Source of the DNA: Leucoraja ocellata | Lineage: Eukaryota | Reading direction: 5' to 3' | Assembly (NCBI GenBank): GCA_036785375.1 | Contig: JAWMAR010000133.1 | Location: forward strand, 2,232,001 to 2,296,000 | Length of the DNA stretch: 64,000 nucleotides | Shown here: one piece after another, positions 30,001-36,000 of the stretch | How the letters are laid out: every line of letters begins with the position of its first letter | How positions within the stretch are numbered: position 1 is the first letter of the stretch | Made by a program: the position numbers

Positions 30001-33000
30001 TAGCCACAAGGGCCACATCTAACTCACTCTTAAATATAGCCAATGAACTGGCCTCAACTACCTTCTGCGGGAGAGAATTCCAGAGATTCACCACTCTCTG
30101 TGTGAAAAAAGTTTTCCTCATCTCGGTCCTAAAAGATTCCCCCCTTATCCTTAAACTCCTTAATACATTTACATTTATTCCAAGCCAAACCTGCACATAT
30201 TTGGAGTGTGGGAGGAAACCGAAGATCTCGGAGAAAACCCACGCAGGTTATGAAGAGAACGTGCAAACTCCCGTAGTCAGGATCAAACCCAGGTCTCTGG
30301 CGCTGAAAGGCAGCAGCTATACCGCTGCGCCACTGTGCTGCCCCAGGTCAGTGATATTTTCTTTGGAAATAATTCCTGGGTAGGTGTCTTGTCTCTGATT
30401 TACAGTTTCATATTTCTAAAATAAAGCATCATTGCTTTCTCCTAAAGTACTGCTGACGCTGAAAATAGTGAAATACTCTGAAGGTTAGGCAGCATTTGGC
30501 AGAGAGAGAGAAACAGATTTAAAGGGTTGGATTTGTGACCTTGCAGCAGGATTGGAAAAACTTGGAAATTGGTTTTAACTTCTAGAGAAAAAGATCAGAG
30601 CTGATTACAACAAAAGGGAAGGTCTGTGATTGGAAGAAAACCTAAAGATTGATTTAAACAAGTGGTGTGTTAGCTGAAGGAAGATGTTGAAGGCTTGTGT
30701 CGTTTGTCATAAATTGCTGATTCAGGTGTTTTTCTGGAAGACAGAGGGGGGAGGGAGAGAGAGGGTGCGGGAGAGAGGGGGGGGGAGGGAGAGAGGGGGG
30801 GAGAGAGAGAGATTATCTTGCAATTTCCAGTGGCCACCAACTAACCCAGCAATGTGCACATGTTTGGGATGTGGGTGGAGCCCCAAGCACCCAGAAGAAG
30901 CGGGGAGAAGAGGCAGCAGCTCTACTAGCTGCGATCCTGTGCCGGCTTGTGCCATTGTGGCGCCCCAATAGAATGAGAGTTGGTAATTAATTATTGCAGA
31001 GGGGGAATGTGAATTCAAGACTATATTGGCAAATGATCTTGGTAATTTCTTCATCTGACATTGACAGCAGGGGCGATCTCAATTCTGCGCTGTTAGATGA
31101 TCTGTCCTGCAGATACGATAGCAAATTCTGTTTTCAAGTTCAAGTGTATTTGGGTTTTTTTGAAGAACAGAACATTATCCTAGCTCCTGTACCCCCACAT
31201 TTGAGTTAACAAAATAGATAATTGCTGTCGTGGAGTCTTGTTTTGGACCATAATTATGTTGCTTCTTGGCAATGGATGATATCTGAAATGGTTGAGGTTT
31301 GTTGAAAAAGTATGTGGGCCAAAACACAAGGCAGATTCATTCTTATACCTGCATTCTTTGACTTTCAGATTGTATTGCTAAGATGCTCAGTTTTACTAAA
31401 TGCTGCCTTCCCCACCTGTAATGAACGTTTAGGTTTAAGTCTTTTTTAATTCTGTTAGAAAGATGAGCTCCTTAAGGTCTAAAAAGATTTAAAGAGAGTT
31501 AGATTTAGCTCTTAGGGCTAATGGAATCTAGGGATATGGGGAGAAAGCAGGAAGTGGGTACTGATTTTGGATGATCAGCCATGATCATATTGAATGGGAG
31601 GCTACTGCTGCACCGATTTTTCTAAGATTTGCAAATCTTTCAAATATCCTGAAGAAGAAAAGTAATCTATAAGCAGGCATGATTTTAAGTGTTCATTCTC
31701 AGCATTTAGCTGTATTGTAACTAACTTGCATGCAGGTTTATAGGTTAATTGGCTTCTGTAAATTGCCCCTAGTGTAGAGAGTGGATGAGAAAGCGGGGTA
31801 TCTAGTGTGAATAGGTGATTGATGGTCAATGTAGATTCGGTGGGCTGAAGGACCTGTTTCCATTCTATCTCTTTTAAGAAAAACGTCAAAAATTAAGCAT
31901 TTTCTTCATATTGTAACAAATTCAGTCTCCACAGTTAATGTTTTGTGGGTGAAATATTCGCCTCATTACTTATTTTGATTTGGGGTATTATCTCATTGAT
32001 GCTGAATTGAACTGAATTGTCATATTTTTAGATCTAAAAACGGATGAAAAGGGAAATTGTATCCTGCCTGAAGCAGCCGGCTCACTTCCCCAAGAAATTG
32101 ACCCCAACAAAGAAAATGATGTGCTGTTTACTTACTCTGTCCGTTGGGAGGTGAGTATGTTGTTCGAGATCAATGATCCTAATGGAACCCAACTTGCAGT
32201 AGGACTCGTATCTATCGTGATTACTGATTCAGTAAGAATGTTCGAGACACGGGCTGAGAACTCATCACAAATGCAGGAAATTACAACTTAAATGCAATAC
32301 TATTGTGGAGAAGTGTAAAGCTAATGGTGGCATTGTTGTGAAAATGCATTTGGTGCATTCATGTCATTTGTGAAATGAAATCCGTTATCTTTATCCTTTC
32401 TGACCCACAAGCATGTGATTGACTTTGAAATATGTTGCCAAGCCACTCGGATGTATTCAAAGCAATTAGGGTTAGGCAATGCAGCGGTATCGAGGATCTA
32501 AATGATTTTATAACTAAATATTTCTGCAGGAATTTCTTTAGCCAGAGGGTGGTGAATCTGTGGAATTCATTGCAACTGATGGCTATGGAGGCCAAGTCAT
32601 TGGGTATTTTTACAGCAGAGATTACAGGTTCTAGATTAGTAATGGCATCAAAGGTTACGAGGAGAAGGCTGGAGAATGAGGTGGAGAGGGAAAAATAGAT
32701 CGCCCATGATCGAATGGCAGAGAAAACCTGATGGGCCGAATAGCCTAATTCTGCTCCTATGTCTTGTGGTCTTACGCTGCATTTAAATGAGTCATTTGCT
32801 TTTAATAGGCCGACTCCAAACTTGAAGTGATTGGGAGGTTTCATAGGGTTAAAGTTTGTCTTTAAAATTCAAGAAATATGAACCACAAAACTATGTAGTG
32901 ATGATCTTTTATTTCTTTTATGGTACACTAGAAAACATCTGCTTTTATTTGTATGTATGAACATGTGTCAACATGACCTGCAAGTTGTCTTGCGATGGAC

Positions 33001-36000
33001 TTCTGTATCACTAGTCTGGCCTGGGGTCATGGCAAGTTAAAATTGCTCAATAGCAAGTTAACATCCAAATCATTAACTTGTATTTTCAGGGTGGTCCTAT
33101 TAAATGGGCATCTCGCTGGGACACTTACTTAACCATGAGTGACGTGCAGATACACTGGTTCTCCATTGTCAATTCCGTTGTTGTTGTTTTCTTCCTCTCT
33201 GGTGAGTTGATGATTGCTACGTTTTTCATTTTATGCAAAGGGAATCTTCACATCTACATTATTAAGCACTAACCTTGGAGGATAAATGTACGGTAGTCAC
33301 TAATAAAATTAATGAAGTATTCAAGGGGAATATAGTTTTTTTTAATCAAAGGTATAGGAGACCCCATAGCAGAAGCGTCCATGTTGCGGGAGCTGGAAAC
33401 TGGAAGTATCCTGAGCTAATTCTGCTACCACCATCATCTATTGCAACATTGCCACTGAGTGCCATCGTCCGTCTTATGCCTCCTCTTGGAAGTTGGCGTC
33501 CTTTTCAGGATGGCCGATGACAGCGATGTCAACATTTTAAACATGGAAGATGGATGCCAAAGAAGAAAGTTATAGGTAAAAAGTAGAAGATAGACAAAAA
33601 TGCTGGAGAAACTCAGCGGGTGCAGCAGCATCTATGGAGCAAAGGAAATAGGCAACGTTTCGGGTCGAAACCCAAAGGGTTTCGGCCTGAAACGTTGCCT
33701 ATTTCCTATTGCCTATTTTCTTCCCTTTTCTTTCCAGCATCTATGGAGCGAAGGGAATAGGCAACGTTTCGGGTGCTGCTGCACCCGCTGAGTTTCTCCA
33801 GCATTTTTGTCTACCTTCGATTTTCCAGCATCTGCAGTTCCTTCTTAAACAGGTAAAAAGTAGAACTAGTGCAAGACATTTGATGCAAAAGATGGGATTG
33901 TGTATAATGGCATCTTAAATAAAAATAAACAACTTTTGAATTGATTAGATGAAGAAGGGTTTAAAAGTGTTTATGTGCCACGTCGGTAGGTTAAGATGGA
34001 TGACTTGCTTCAATGTTCGGAAGACACTGTCTCTATACGATAAATAAAATGCTGCCTTTAACTGTAATGGGACTACCAGGGTATCAGTGCCTGGTACGGC
34101 AATTCCAAAGCATACAAACACAAGATGCGGCAGAGAGTTGTGGTTCAGCCTCGTCCTTCCCGGCACTACCCTCCATACCATTAAAGGCGCCCACACAAGA
34201 TGCTGTCTCAAGAATGGGTCGACTGGGCTTGTATTCACAGGAATTTAGAAGGATGAGAGGAGATCTCATGGAAACATATAACATTCTTAAAGGATTGGAC
34301 AGGCAAGATGCGGGAAAAATGTTCCCGATGTTGGGGGAGTCCAGAACCACAGTTTAAGAATAAGGGGTCGGCCATTTAGGACTGAGATGAGGAAAAGCGT
34401 TTTCACCCAGAGAGTTGTGAATGTGGAATTCTCTGCCACAGAAGGCAGTGGAGGCCAATTCACTGGATGTTTTCAACAGGGAGTTAGATTTAGCTCTTCG
34501 GGCTAAAGGAATCAGCCATGATCATATTGAATGGCGGTGCTGGCTCGAAGGGCCGAATGGCCTACTGCTGCACCTATTTTGCCATGTTTCTAAGAAGCGT
34601 CATCTATCAAAAAGGATTCTCACTATCCGGATCATACCCGTTTCTTGCTGCTATCAATGAGCAGGAGGTACAGAAACTGAAGTCCCACACCACCAGGTCC
34701 AGCAACAGCTGCTTTCAGATGACCGTCAGGTTCTTTAACAGACCCACACAACCGTAATCCTACTTCAGCCATGGAACACTACACACCAGCCTTTGAACTA
34801 CCATTTTTACACATCTTTTTTCTTTTTGATGCCTTGCACAAAACGTATAACTAATGTTTTTGTCTGTTGTCTGAGTCTATCTGCCCACGATGCTGCTCGA
34901 TCAAAGGTAGACAAAAGTGCTGGAGAAACTCAGCGGGTGCAGCGGCATCTATGGAGCGAAGGAAATAGGCAACGTTTCGGCTCGAAACGTTGCCTATTTC
35001 CTTCGCTCCATAGATGCCGCTGCACCGGCTGAGTTTCTCCAGCACTTTTGTCTACCTTCGATTTTCCAGCATCTGCAGTTCCTTCTTAAACAACATTCTG
35101 CTCCATCAAGATTCTTGTTGTACCTGCAGCTCACAATACTTTTGTATTGGACAATAAAATAGTAGACTTGACCAAGACTGAATTGGATGAGTCTTGCTTT
35201 CATGTGGAAATGGATAAAGAGGTGCAGCGTGAAAATAAAACAACATGTAAATGTTGGAGATCTGGGATAAAACAGCAAATGCTAGAAACACTTAGCAGCT
35301 CGGACAGTAACTGTGGAAGGTGAAACAATCAACATTTCAGGTCGAAGGGCCTTCCTCAGACTCCACAGTTGATGCCAGACATGCGGCTTGTCTTCAGCAT
35401 TTTCAGTTTTTATTAAATGGACAGAGAAATTCATTAAGAGATAGAATTTCCATGATTTCTTCGAGCTTTACAGTGCAGTTGCATATTGTGCATGTTTTAA
35501 AAAGTATCAATTCACGACAGTGTTCAATATCCAATTATATATAAATATTTTATGATGAGATTTCCCTTCACAATTACAACTTTTACTCTGCAATGCAAGA
35601 TGTCCCAAAGCTACTACTTCCTCCTTCACCCTACCCAATCCTTCCTTTGTCTTATTTACAACATTTGCAATTTATGTTAGATGTAGGCAATTTTTTTTTG
35701 ATATATCGCCATGGCATTCTAAATTATGTGCACTGCCTTTAGTTTCATAATAACAACAAATAATTGAGAGCAGAAAGATTAAAGGTGAGTGGGAAAAGAT
35801 TCAAAAGGAAATGGAGGGGCAACATTTTGGGGGTGGGTGTATGGAATGAGCTGCCAGAAGAGGTATTTATGAAGGAACTGCAGATGTTGGAAAATCGGTA
35901 GACAAAAATGCTGGAGAAACTCAGCGGGTGCAGCATCATCTAAGGAGCGAAGGAAATAGGCAACGTTTCGGGTCGAAACGTTGCCTGTTTCCTTCGCTCC

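What the first reader, a model, noticed from the sequence alone, without database searches (positions are those of the whole stretch)
31605..34062. TM9SF4 intron 1 carries an antisense copy of its own exons 7-8: a built-in long pre-mRNA hairpin
Seen: 31605-34062 (+) is the reverse complement of approx. 14837-17617, including exons 7 and 8 with their splice sites. Both arms lie in the same primary transcript, separated by a loop of about 14 kb that holds exons 2-6 (637 nt). Exons 7+8 total 231 nt with phase 1 at both ends, so skipping them keeps the frame (77 aa lost, including the start of the first TM helix). Established: long intronic inverted repeats promote back-splicing, ADAR editing and endo-siRNA production. 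Inference: a duplex of about 1.4 kb could regulate TM9SF4 in cis by masking exons 7-8, circularising exons 2-6, or recoding edits.
Basis: partly seen in the sequence, partly recalled or inferred. Interest (0 to 1): 0.85.

Follow-up and report, generated by a model that had tools for sequence, protein, structure and literature searches.

The report
Backwards copy of TM9SF4 exons 7-8
A cartilaginous-fish TM9SF4 gene carries, inside its first intron, a backwards copy of its own exons 7 and 8; the copy is real and kept nearly identical to the original by DNA copying between the two, but nothing yet shows that it regulates the gene.

Summary
Window 31602-34062 (+) is the reverse complement of 14837-17616. 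The match is a mosaic. A 1,406-nt core (31888-33283 vs 17177-15772) has 17 substitutions and 2 indels (K2P 0.012). Its unique-sequence flanks are 8-11 times more diverged (K2P 0.10 and 0.14). There is also an arm-A-only 129-nt insertion and a largely non-homologous block.

The core holds exon 7 (119 nt), intron 7 and exon 8 (112 nt) with their splice sites. Exon 1 (MAARR plus a GT donor) lies at 41066-41052 (-) in a CpG-island promoter. A transcript-like protein, P0004, starts MAARRAMSIW. So arm B lies in intron 1, and both arms lie in one primary transcript.

Best reading: an old intragenic inverted segmental duplication whose core was recently homogenised by gene conversion, with the tract stopping at heterologies. 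Arm B is a non-coding pseudo-exon fragment. A 1,384-bp RNA duplex is possible, but it is probably a tolerated by-product. Both near-identical proteins found (2 of 2) keep exons 7-8. Regulation remains untested. It is a new member of a known kind, of moderate interest.

The parts
40601..41400 (-). CpG-island promoter of TM9SF4, with a tandem GC-box array at 41112-41353
   Evidence: GC up to 0.70 and CpG observed/expected 0.89-1.06. GC boxes, two TGACGTC motifs and a CACGTG lie upstream of the ATG. TRF finds period 18 and about 13 copies.
41052..41066 (-). Coding part of exon 1 (ATG GCG GCG AGG AGG = MAARR), followed by a GTGAGA donor
   Evidence: Sequence read. The 20-mer is unique, with 0 expected by chance. 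It is the only MAARR in six frames, and GT follows it. P0004 starts MAARRAMSIW.
23419..41051 (-). Intron 1 (17,633 nt as written, including the N run 40240-40422, which was not examined)
   Evidence: Exon 1 donor and exon 2 acceptor (ttttgttttag|GCAATG) read. N run located.
31602..34062 (+). Arm B: inverted partial copy of TM9SF4 (end of intron 6 through start of intron 8), antisense to the host transcript
31888..33283 (+). Arm B core, near-identical to arm A 17177-15772
   Evidence: 1,406 nt with 17 substitutions and 2 indels. K2P 0.0123 +/- 0.0030.
32032..32150 (+). Pseudo-exon 7 copy (119 nt; differs from exon 7 by M>T and H>R)
33090..33201 (+). Pseudo-exon 8 copy (112 nt; S>G at a serine conserved in 16 of 16 named orthologues)
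   Evidence: Pfam EMP70 at E 1.6e-12.
31602..31892 (+). Arm B old flank 1 (matches A 17616-17307)
   Evidence: 85.5% over 310 columns. K2P 0.097 +/- 0.020. Copy depth 2-3.6.
33284..33852 (+). Arm B block without clear homology to arm A. It includes copies of the short repeat at 33580-33852.
33853..34062 (+). Arm B old flank 2 (matches A 15031-14837)
   Evidence: 81.0% over 210 columns. K2P 0.141 +/- 0.029. Copy depth 2.
23305..23418 (-). Exon 2 (114 nt; internal ATG at 23415)
21424..21523 (-). Exon 3 (100 nt)
20064..20232 (-). Exon 4 (169 nt)
19249..19378 (-). Exon 5 (130 nt)
18868..18991 (-). Exon 6 (124 nt)
14837..17616 (-). Arm A: the original segment, in gene sense
17307..17616 (-). Arm A old flank 1 (in intron 6)
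17178..17306 (-). Arm-A-only insertion of a short-repeat copy ending in an A-run. Arm B shows the uninterrupted site. The high-identity tract begins exactly here.
   Evidence: (copy depth 16-52)
15772..17177 (-). Arm A core: last 152 nt of intron 6, exon 7, intron 7, exon 8, first 82 nt of intron 8
16907..17025 (-). Exon 7 (119 nt; tttttag| acceptor, |gtgagt donor)
15854..15965 (-). Exon 8 (112 nt). It encodes the start of the hydrophobic stretch [16 protein letters not shown], which continues ILSMIII in the next exon.
15032..15771 (-). Arm A block without clear homology to arm B (CT-rich tract plus a short-repeat copy at 15206-15292)
14837..15031 (-). Arm A old flank 2 (in intron 8)

Best explanation
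This is a real intragenic inverted segmental duplication. About 2.5-2.8 kb of TM9SF4 (end of intron 6, exon 7, intron 7, exon 8, start of intron 8) was copied long ago, in reverse orientation, into intron 1 of the same gene. The two copies then diverged by roughly 10-14% and acquired different repeat insertions and deletions. More recently the central 1.4 kb was homogenised by non-allelic (intrachromosomal) gene conversion between the arms. The converted tract ends where homology is interrupted. On one side that is a 129-nt insertion present only in arm A. On the other it is a 31-nt indel followed by non-homologous sequence. Arm B is a non-coding pseudo-exon fragment, antisense to the host transcript. 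Transcription starts at the CpG island near 41.1 kb, so both arms are in one primary transcript and a near-perfect duplex of about 1.4 kb can form. Arm B is made first. Arm A follows 14.7 kb later and 5.8 kb after exon 2. The duplex therefore forms in cis only on molecules that still hold intron 1. I infer that most transcripts splice normally. I also infer that the duplex, where it forms, gives by-products (A-to-I hyper-editing of the arms, some circular exon 2-6 RNA or exon 7-8 skipping) and is not a selected regulatory switch. At DNA level the pair is also a substrate for inversion of exons 2-6. Shown: the structure, the identity step, the exon content and the position of exon 1. Inferred: gene conversion as the cause, formation of the RNA duplex, and its consequences.
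For: The core has K2P 0.0123 +/- 0.0030 over 1,394 sites. The flanks have 0.097 +/- 0.020 (286 sites) and 0.141 +/- 0.029 (195 sites). The flanks are collinear and unique, with copy depth 2 in the window. That means one old duplication, not repeat-family copies. Differences are spread evenly across exon 7 (2 of 119), intron 7 (12 of 939) and exon 8 (1 of 112). So the near-identity is not coding constraint. All 3 exonic differences are non-synonymous, and one replaces a serine conserved in 16 of 16 named orthologues. So arm B is not under coding selection. The 99% tract begins exactly at the arm-A-only insertion, and arm B has the empty site. At the other end, a 31-nt indel is followed by 27 nt matching at 25 positions, and then homology stops. 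The intron is retained in the copy, so it is not a processed pseudogene. Exon 1 sits in the CpG island and P0004 starts MAARRAMSIW. The predicted RNA duplex of the cores has 1,384 pairs at -2,576.7 kcal/mol, and the longest perfect run is 196 bp. P0003 and P0004, the only 2 near-identical proteins found, both contain exons 7-8. For comparison, the F8 int1h repeats are near-perfect inverted repeats of 1,041 bp that recombine (PMC8776779, passages).
Against: Gene conversion is inferred from one genome. No second species or individual could be examined, so the test of arms grouping by species rather than by arm was not made. Selection for RNA pairing would also keep the arms alike and is not excluded. 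P0003 starts at the exon-2 methionine (MSIWP). This could reflect a 5'-truncated contig or an alternative start downstream of arm B. If that start were the main one, the arms would not share a transcript. At the H/R site, arm B carries R, the residue of the one named shark, while arm A carries H. The direction of change there is ambiguous. No RNA data of any kind were available, so the 'by-product' view is a judgement and not a result. The absence of a skipped isoform rests on only 2 proteins.
Confidence: 0.65

Rival explanations
1. One reading: the inverted copy is a selected cis-regulatory hairpin. The 1.4-kb duplex masks exons 7-8, loops out or circularises exons 2-6, or directs recoding edits or siRNAs. 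The arms are kept alike because pairing matters.
For: Both arms lie in one inferred primary transcript. Exons 7 and 8, with all four splice sites, lie inside the near-perfect core, 152 and 82 nt from its edges. Skipping them keeps the frame (231 nt). Stable long-range pairs that loop out exons lower exon inclusion, and inverted repeats flank circRNAs (PMC8052449 passages; PMC13019027 passages). The core has stayed at 99% while the flanks decayed.
Against: The identity step has sharp edges at heterologies. Gene conversion predicts that; selection on pairing does not. The in-frame product would lose half of the first membrane helix of a conserved protein, so it is unlikely to be a useful isoform. 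The 2 of 2 near-identical proteins keep exons 7-8 and show no A-to-G type change relative to arm A in these exons. The single difference, M>T in P0003, is a T>C change. Arm B sits 8.2 kb from exon 2 and 14.7 kb from arm A. There are 33 short-repeat copies in both orientations inside the transcription unit as competitors. No RNA data were available.
Confidence: 0.1
2. The arms are not in the same transcript in practice. The main transcription start lies between arm B and exon 2, and translation begins at the exon-2 ATG. Arm B would then be upstream intergenic DNA.
For: P0003 (636 aa) begins MSIWP at the exon-2 ATG. A weaker CpG-rich stretch lies at 28.6-29.2 kb.
Against: Exon 2 is preceded by a strong acceptor 3 nt before that ATG, and by repeat-rich, AT-rich sequence. 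The 28.6-29.2 kb stretch translates like the SINE-like repeats seen elsewhere in the window; this is my reading of the ORF lists, not a test. P0004 carries MAARR, which is encoded once in the window and is followed by GT, in a strong CpG island. MS-IWPLVLLLE lacks the positively charged start that MAARR supplies; this point rests on general knowledge of signal peptides.
Confidence: 0.1
3. Assembly artefact: arm B's core was misplaced or duplicated by the assembler, and the genome has only one copy.
For: 99% identity over 1.4 kb is within the range where assemblers can err. Only one assembly was seen. An N run lies elsewhere in intron 1.
Against: The core is embedded in collinear flanks diverged by 10-14%. 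There is an arm-specific insertion, an 8-nt and a 2-nt indel, and 17 scattered substitutions. A misplaced read or collapsed haplotype would not bring its own old, diverged flanks. No N run touches either arm.
Confidence: 0.05
4. Arm B belongs to an independent plus-strand transcript. Its exon copies keep AG/GT sites and are spliced there, giving a natural antisense RNA that pairs with TM9SF4 mRNA in trans.
For: The splice-site dinucleotides and flanking tracts of both exon copies are unchanged in arm B.
Against: I did not search for a plus-strand promoter and cannot rule one out. No other TM9SF4 exon copy flanks arm B: tblastn with the shark protein finds only exons 7 and 8 on the plus strand. 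Intact sites are expected anyway after recent conversion. No RNA data were available.
Confidence: 0.04

Closest known systems
Intragenic or gene-flanking inverted low-copy repeats that undergo gene conversion and inversion, such as F8 int1h (and int22h)
   Same: One repeat copy lies in intron 1 of the gene. The near-identical inverted copy is about 1 kb (F8 int1h: 1,041 bp with one mismatch; PMC8776779 passages; here 1,406 nt with 17 substitutions). Intrachromosomal recombination between the copies is the expected behaviour.
   Different: Here both copies are inside the gene and only 14.7 kb apart, against 140 kb with one copy outside F8. The repeat here contains two coding exons of the host gene. 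No inversion has been observed here. The older diverged flanks show concerted evolution of a sub-segment only.
Inverted intronic repeat pairs (for example inverted Alu pairs) that promote loop-out exon skipping and circRNA formation
   Same: These are reverse-complementary segments in one pre-mRNA flanking internal exons. Stable pairs that loop out exons lower inclusion, and inverted pairs are enriched beside circRNAs (PMC8052449; PMC13019027; passages only).
   Different: The arms are not transposon copies but a duplicate of the gene's own exons. One arm includes exons and their splice sites, not only intron. The duplex is about five times the length of an Alu pair (Alu length recalled). The windows analysed in those papers are 0.5-5 kb from the exon or at most 10 kb between partners, whereas arm B is 8.2 kb from exon 2 and 14.7 kb from arm A. 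No back-splice or skipped product was seen here.
Hairpin-RNA (hpRNA) endo-siRNA loci formed by inverted duplication of a target gene (Drosophila)
   Same: [quoted passage not shown] For example, an inverted repeat with about 200 bp homology to exon 2 of Tapas gives siRNAs antisense to the parent (PMC10317233 passages).
   Different: hpRNAs are separate transcription units with both arms close together, and they are defined by Dicer-2-dependent small RNAs. Here one arm is the functional gene itself, the loop is 14.7 kb with five exons, the organism is a vertebrate, and no small-RNA data exist.
Disease-causing intragenic inverted duplications in human genes (MANBA, CHM)
   Same: These are inverted duplications of exon-bearing segments within one gene (PMC6549551 and PMC8756506; titles and abstract openings in the search listing only).
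   Different: Those are recent pathogenic alleles. Here the gene still yields normal full-length protein models, and the duplication is old.

Membership tests
TM9SF4 / EMP70 (transmembrane 9 superfamily) gene | Match to Pfam EMP70 (PF02990) above the curated cut-off | tested here: met
   The exon-8 frame scores 48.9 bits against a cut-off of 27, E 5.4e-13. The arm B copy scores 47.3 bits. The exon-7 frame alone has no Pfam match.
TM9SF4 / EMP70 (transmembrane 9 superfamily) gene | Closest named relatives are TM9SF4, collinear over the exons | tested here: met
   The named hits listed are mostly named TM9SF4. tblastn with shark TM9SF4 P0101 maps 13 exon-sized pieces in order on the minus strand, up to the window edge.
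Inverted low-copy repeat pair with concerted evolution (F8 int1h type) | Two inverted copies of about 1 kb or more with near-identity on one chromosome | tested here: met
   1,406 nt at 98.1-99%
Inverted low-copy repeat pair with concerted evolution (F8 int1h type) | Identity in the repeat far above that of adjacent paralogous sequence (a sign of gene conversion) | tested here: met
   K2P 0.012 against 0.097 and 0.141. The tract edges fall at heterologies.
Inverted low-copy repeat pair with concerted evolution (F8 int1h type) | Arms group by species rather than by arm in relatives; inversion alleles exist | not testable with these tools
Inverted-repeat-driven loop-out skipping / circRNA locus | Complementary segments in the same pre-mRNA on both sides of internal exons | tested here: met
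   Arm B is in intron 1 and arm A begins in intron 6, with exons 2-6 between them. This depends on transcription starting at 41.1 kb.
Inverted-repeat-driven loop-out skipping / circRNA locus | A back-splice junction or skipped isoform is observed | tested here: inconclusive
   Only proteins could be searched. 2 of 2 near-identical proteins keep exons 7-8, and none of the 79 exon-6 hits is a close relative lacking them. Circular RNA and minor isoforms cannot be seen this way.
hpRNA / endo-siRNA locus | Inverted repeat with homology to a protein-coding target | tested here: met
hpRNA / endo-siRNA locus | Dicer-dependent 21-22-nt small RNAs from the arms; own transcription unit | not testable with these tools
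   No small-RNA or RNA-seq data. The arms are embedded in the host gene, so this is not a discrete unit.
Processed (retroposed) pseudogene fragment | Introns absent from the copy | tested here: not met
   Intron 7 (941 nt) and parts of introns 6 and 8 are present in arm B.
Transposon-captured exon fragment (Pack-MULE or Helitron type) | Multiple copies; the captured piece lies between element termini | tested here: inconclusive
   Copy depth is exactly 2 within the 64-kb window. Genome-wide copy number could not be tested. The termini of the arms were not examined for terminal repeats beyond the blastn maps.
Known structured RNA family (Rfam) | Match at a family's gathering score | tested here: not met
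   0 matches in the whole window on both strands.

The most novel reading that the evidence does not exclude
TM9SF4 in this lineage carries a maintained self-complementary module. The antisense copy of exons 7-8 in intron 1 pairs co-transcriptionally with the real exons, so the rate of intron-1 removal sets how often exons 7-8 are hidden or exons 2-6 circularise. This would be a built-in kinetic autoregulator of a housekeeping gene, with repeated conversion from arm A keeping the sensor matched to its target.
Probability: 0.07. Interest if true: 0.7.

Novelty: new member of a known kind. Interest (0 to 1): 0.4.

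Why it matters
If the duplex forms in vivo, this locus is a clean natural test of how a vertebrate cell handles a very long, near-perfect intramolecular dsRNA. The duplex includes two constitutive coding exons of a conserved gene. It sets the speed of intron-1 removal against long-range pairing over 14.7 kb. Its read-outs would be clear: an exon 6-9 junction, an exon 6->2 back-splice, and clustered A-to-G changes. 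At DNA level it shows concerted evolution inside a single gene. It also marks a site where inversion of exons 2-6 could give null alleles. As it stands, it is a well-documented structural curiosity and not a demonstrated mechanism.

Tried and rejected
- **Rfam:** gathering thresholds on the whole window gave 0 matches.
- **Pfam on ORFs:** I scanned ten long ORFs from intron 1 and upstream. Only a LINE reverse-transcriptase fragment matched (26078-26578). No other gene was found between exon 1 and exon 2, but short exons would be missed.
- **Exon-2 search:** I repeated it with the same window reference extended in frame.
- **Cluster look-up:** The listing of cluster members for P0003 and P0004 (named members, isoforms) could not be made because the database was switched off. 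So I do not know whether P0004's 10-member cluster holds a named skate protein or a shorter isoform.
- **Short unnamed hits:** I printed five (P0005, P0007, P0013, P0014, P0035) to see whether any was an arm-B-type copy. They are intron-retaining fragments from other taxa, and I dropped them. I did not open other unnamed hits at mammal-like identity.
- **Target-site duplication:** I looked for one around the arm-A-only insertion. The site is A-rich with a local repeat, so no clean duplication can be called. The insert folds no better than shuffles (z -1.73).
- **Literature:** 12 papers hold both 'TM9SF4' and 'circular RNA', and 10 were listed. None concerns such a structure or a cartilaginous fish, judging by title and abstract opening. 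Searches on inverted duplication with exon skipping or dsRNA and on inverted repeat, gene conversion, intragenic or antisense exon (0 occurrences of 'antisense exon' in the 15 papers listed) gave no description of a gene carrying an antisense copy of its own exons in its first intron. These searches cover open-access text only.
- **Not attempted:** presence in other skates, rays and sharks, for lack of any eukaryotic genome collection. Supplements were closed and not needed.
- **Window origin:** the window is not human. Its nearest named relative is a shark protein at 57-98% identity per exon.
- **Joined model:** I searched the gene model exon by exon. The joined (spliced) model was neither built nor searched.

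Full report

Yes. The repeat finder on 12-36 kb returns inverted pairs 15772-16632/32423-33283 (861 nt, 99%), 16633-17052/32005-32424 (420 nt, 99%) and 17056-17177/31888-32009 (122 nt, 98%). Self-blastn joins these into one 1,406-nt alignment, B 31888-33283 against A 17177-15772, at 98.1%.

Two further collinear inverted matches extend it. They are B 31602-31892 with A 17616-17307 (85.5%) and B 33853-34062 with A 15031-14837 (81.0%). A global alignment shows the layout from the intron-6 side:
- the older flank;
- an insertion present only in arm A (17178-17306);
- the near-identical core;
- a 31-nt arm-A-only segment, then 27 nt matching at 25 positions;
- a block of 570 nt (B) or 740 nt (A) without clear homology;
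- the second older flank.

The core differs by 17 substitutions, one 8-nt indel and one 2-nt indel. No N run touches either arm. The runs are at 40240-40422 and 60806-60934, and I left them as they are.

**2. What the arms contain**

Arm A, read on the minus strand, holds two exons with consensus splice sites. Exon 7 is 17025-16907 (119 nt, tttttag|AT...GAG|gtgagt). Exon 8 is 15965-15854 (112 nt, ttttcag|GG...CTG|gtgagt). The exon-8 frame matches Pfam EMP70 (E 5.4e-13), and so does its arm B copy (E 1.6e-12).

The copies in arm B lie on the plus strand at 32032-32150 and 33090-33201. Their splice-site dinucleotides are unchanged. They differ at three positions, all non-synonymous: M>T, H>R and S>G.

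Among 16 named vertebrate orthologues the serine is invariant (16 of 16), and arm B has glycine there. H is found in 13 of 16, R in the shark and Polypterus, and L in one lizard. The M/T site is variable. Differences per site are the same in exon 7 (2 of 119), intron 7 (12 of 939) and exon 8 (1 of 112).

**3. The gene model, exon by exon**

I obtained a named shark TM9SF4 (P0101, Chiloscyllium plagiosum) by searching with the exon-8 frame alone. Mapped by tblastn, it places the exons in order on the minus strand:
- five coding exons between the arms, near 23.4, 21.5, 20.2, 19.3 and 18.9 kb;
- exons 7 and 8 in arm A;
- six more exon pieces down to the window's left edge.

The same search finds exons 7 and 8, and no other exon, on the plus strand in arm B.

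Boundaries worked out for each exon on its own are as follows:

| Exon | Coordinates (-) | Length |
|---|---|---|
| 2 | 23418-23305 | 114 nt |
| 3 | 21523-21424 | 100 nt |
| 4 | 20232-20064 | 169 nt |
| 5 | 19378-19249 | 130 nt |
| 6 | 18991-18868 | 124 nt |

Exon 6 leaves one base over and exon 8 leaves one base over. Removing the 231 nt of exons 7-8 therefore keeps the frame. It would remove 77 residues, including the first part of the hydrophobic stretch [23 protein letters not shown].

I did not build or search a joined, spliced model.

**4. Is arm B really in intron 1?**

This was the weakest point of the finding, because the first methionine-bearing exon (23.4 kb) lies downstream of arm B. 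Four things support an upstream exon 1:
- That exon is preceded by a strong acceptor three bases before its ATG, and by repeat-rich, AT-rich sequence, not a promoter.
- The strongest CpG island of the window lies at 40.6-41.4 kb (GC up to 0.70, observed/expected about 1.0).
- On the minus strand the island carries a tandem GC-box array (41112-41353, period 18, about 13 copies) and two TGACGTC motifs. Then comes gacaagATGGCGGCGAGGAGG|gtgaga. That is MAARR followed by a donor, in phase with exon 2.
- This 20-mer is unique in the window, and MAARR occurs once in six frames, there, followed by GT.

Independent support comes from a search with exon 2 alone. It found two unnamed full-length proteins from 2-3-kb contigs. 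P0004 (642 aa) begins MAARRAMSIWPLVLLL and matches every mapped exon. P0003 (636 aa) begins at the exon-2 methionine.

I therefore accept exon 1 at 41066-41052. Intron 1 is then 23419-41051, and arm B lies 6,989 nt from its donor and 8,183 nt from exon 2. P0003 leaves open a second start downstream of arm B; that rival is listed.

**5. How the structure arose**

Both arms have copy depth 2 in the window, meaning self plus the other arm. The exception is a LINE-tail fragment within intron 7, which both arms share. The flanks are thus unique sequence and true paralogues.

Their divergence is K2P 0.097 +/- 0.020 and 0.141 +/- 0.029, which is 8-11 times that of the core (0.0123 +/- 0.0030). The high-identity tract starts exactly at the arm-A-only insertion. 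That insertion is a copy of the window's commonest short repeat and ends in an A-run, while arm B has the uninterrupted site. The tract ends at an indel next to non-homologous sequence.

The simplest history has three steps:
- one old inverted duplication of about 2.5-2.8 kb;
- independent decay and repeat insertion in each copy;
- a recent gene-conversion event limited by those heterologies.

Because arm A's exons are under selection and arm B's are not, conversion that persists should run mostly from A to B. That direction is inference.

Other origins fit less well:
- Retention of intron 7 excludes a processed pseudogene.
- Transposon capture cannot be excluded genome-wide, but nothing in the window supports it.
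- An assembly artefact is unlikely, because a misplaced segment would not sit between its own old, collinear, diverged flanks.

**6. What it probably does**

On the inferred pre-mRNA the two cores can form a duplex of 1,384 pairs (-2,576.7 kcal/mol). Its longest perfect run is 196 bp. The duplex encloses both exons and all four of their splice sites (152 and 82 nt from the edges). The loop is 14,710 nt and holds exons 2-6.

Published work supports three general points, from passages I read:
- stable long-range pairs that loop out exons lower their inclusion, and such pairs are depleted in human genes (PMC8052449);
- inverted repeat pairs are enriched beside skipped exons and circRNAs (PMC13019027);
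- inverted repeats homologous to a gene's exon can yield siRNAs in flies (PMC10317233).

Several points count against a strong effect here:
- Arm B is transcribed first, and exon 2 appears 8.2 kb later. Arm A appears only after a further 5.8 kb. Any molecule that has already removed intron 1 cannot pair in cis. This is inference from the geometry; elongation and splicing rates were not measured.
- The transcription unit contains 33 copies of an 88-nt repeat in both orientations (16 plus, 17 minus) that offer nearer partners.
- The in-frame product would lack half of the first membrane helix.
- The only two near-identical proteins in a 5.8-billion-protein collection both contain exons 7-8 with arm A's H and S. 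No close relative lacking those exons appears among the 79 hits of the exon-6 search. This is a weak negative, because minor isoforms and circular RNA would not appear as proteins.

My judgement is that the RNA duplex forms on a minority of transcripts and yields by-products. These would be hyper-editing and some circular or skipped RNA. That expectation rests on recalled knowledge of ADAR and circRNA biology, not on a call.

At DNA level, near-identical inverted repeats of this size are known to recombine. The F8 int1h repeats are 1,041 bp with one mismatch (PMC8776779 passages). Here that would invert exons 2-6 and disable the gene.

**7. Comparison and novelty**

The locus works like an inverted low-copy repeat pair under concerted evolution. 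Potentially it also works like an inverted-repeat pair for loop-out or circularisation. It fails the tests for a processed pseudogene and for any Rfam family. The defining read-outs of an hpRNA locus or a circRNA locus could not be tested.

My literature searches found no description of a gene carrying an antisense copy of its own exons in its first intron, nor anything on TM9SF4 of this kind. They cover open-access text only.

I rate it a new member of a known kind. It is unusual because the arms are the gene's own coding exons and both lie in one transcript. The processes involved (segmental duplication, gene conversion, long-range RNA pairing) are all established.

**8. What stayed unchecked**

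- Presence in other species was not tested.
- The members of the P0003 and P0004 clusters were not seen (could not be made).
- All RNA-level predictions remain untested.
- The 183 N of intron 1 were not examined.

The window is not human. Its nearest named relative is a shark, and the species was not established.

Noticed in passing
window, e.g. 20893-21138, 23482-23724, 25462-25650, 33580-33852, 34889-35073, 17178-17306, 15206-15292: A very abundant short repeat (about 85-130 nt), often in back-to-back palindromic pairs. An 88-nt probe (33586-33673) gives 55 blastn hits in 64 kb at median identity 91%, and 33 of them lie inside the TM9SF4 transcription unit in both orientations. One copy is the arm-A-only insertion. 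I did not identify the family, and Rfam has no match.
   Followed up: partly
window 41047-41353 (-): The TM9SF4 promoter has a tandem array of GC boxes (period 18, about 13 copies, 41112-41353). Two TGACGTC motifs and a CACGTG follow, directly upstream of the ATG.
   Followed up: partly
window 40240-40422 and 60806-60934: Two N runs (183 and 129 nt). The first lies inside intron 1 next to a TA/CA-rich tandem array (40427-40575). I left both unfilled, so the true length of intron 1 is uncertain.
   Followed up: no
window 19160-19244: A perfect 42-nt tandem duplication (2.0 copies, 100% matches) begins 5 nt into intron 5, just after the exon 5 donor. It must be very recent. Any effect on splicing is unknown.
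   Followed up: no
window 17016 (arm A) / 32041 (arm B): At the M/T site, P0003 has Thr like arm B, while the window's arm A and P0004 have Met. The site is a CpG (ACG against ATG). Met may therefore be a recent CpG transition in arm A, or Thr may be a small conversion from arm B in the source of P0003.
   Followed up: partly
window 17620-17779 and 30199-30358: A second inverted pair (160 nt, 88%), made of SINE-like repeat copies, lies directly outside arm A and 1.2 kb from arm B. It could extend or compete with the long stem.
   Followed up: no
window 26078-26578 (-): A LINE reverse-transcriptase fragment (Pfam RVT_1, E 7.4e-15) lies inside intron 1. LINE-tail fragments of one family recur at 29867-30247, 34210-34592, 56249-57020 and 59181-59604, and also inside intron 7 of both arms.
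   Followed up: partly
window 41400-64000: I recognised no protein-coding gene upstream of the TM9SF4 promoter. The long ORFs there are repeat-derived or low-complexity. They include CT-rich tracts at 53100-53800 (GC 0.605) and 62700-63200, and further CpG-rich patches at 47.4-48.8 and 55.0-55.4 kb. Short exons of a neighbouring gene would have been missed.
   Followed up: no
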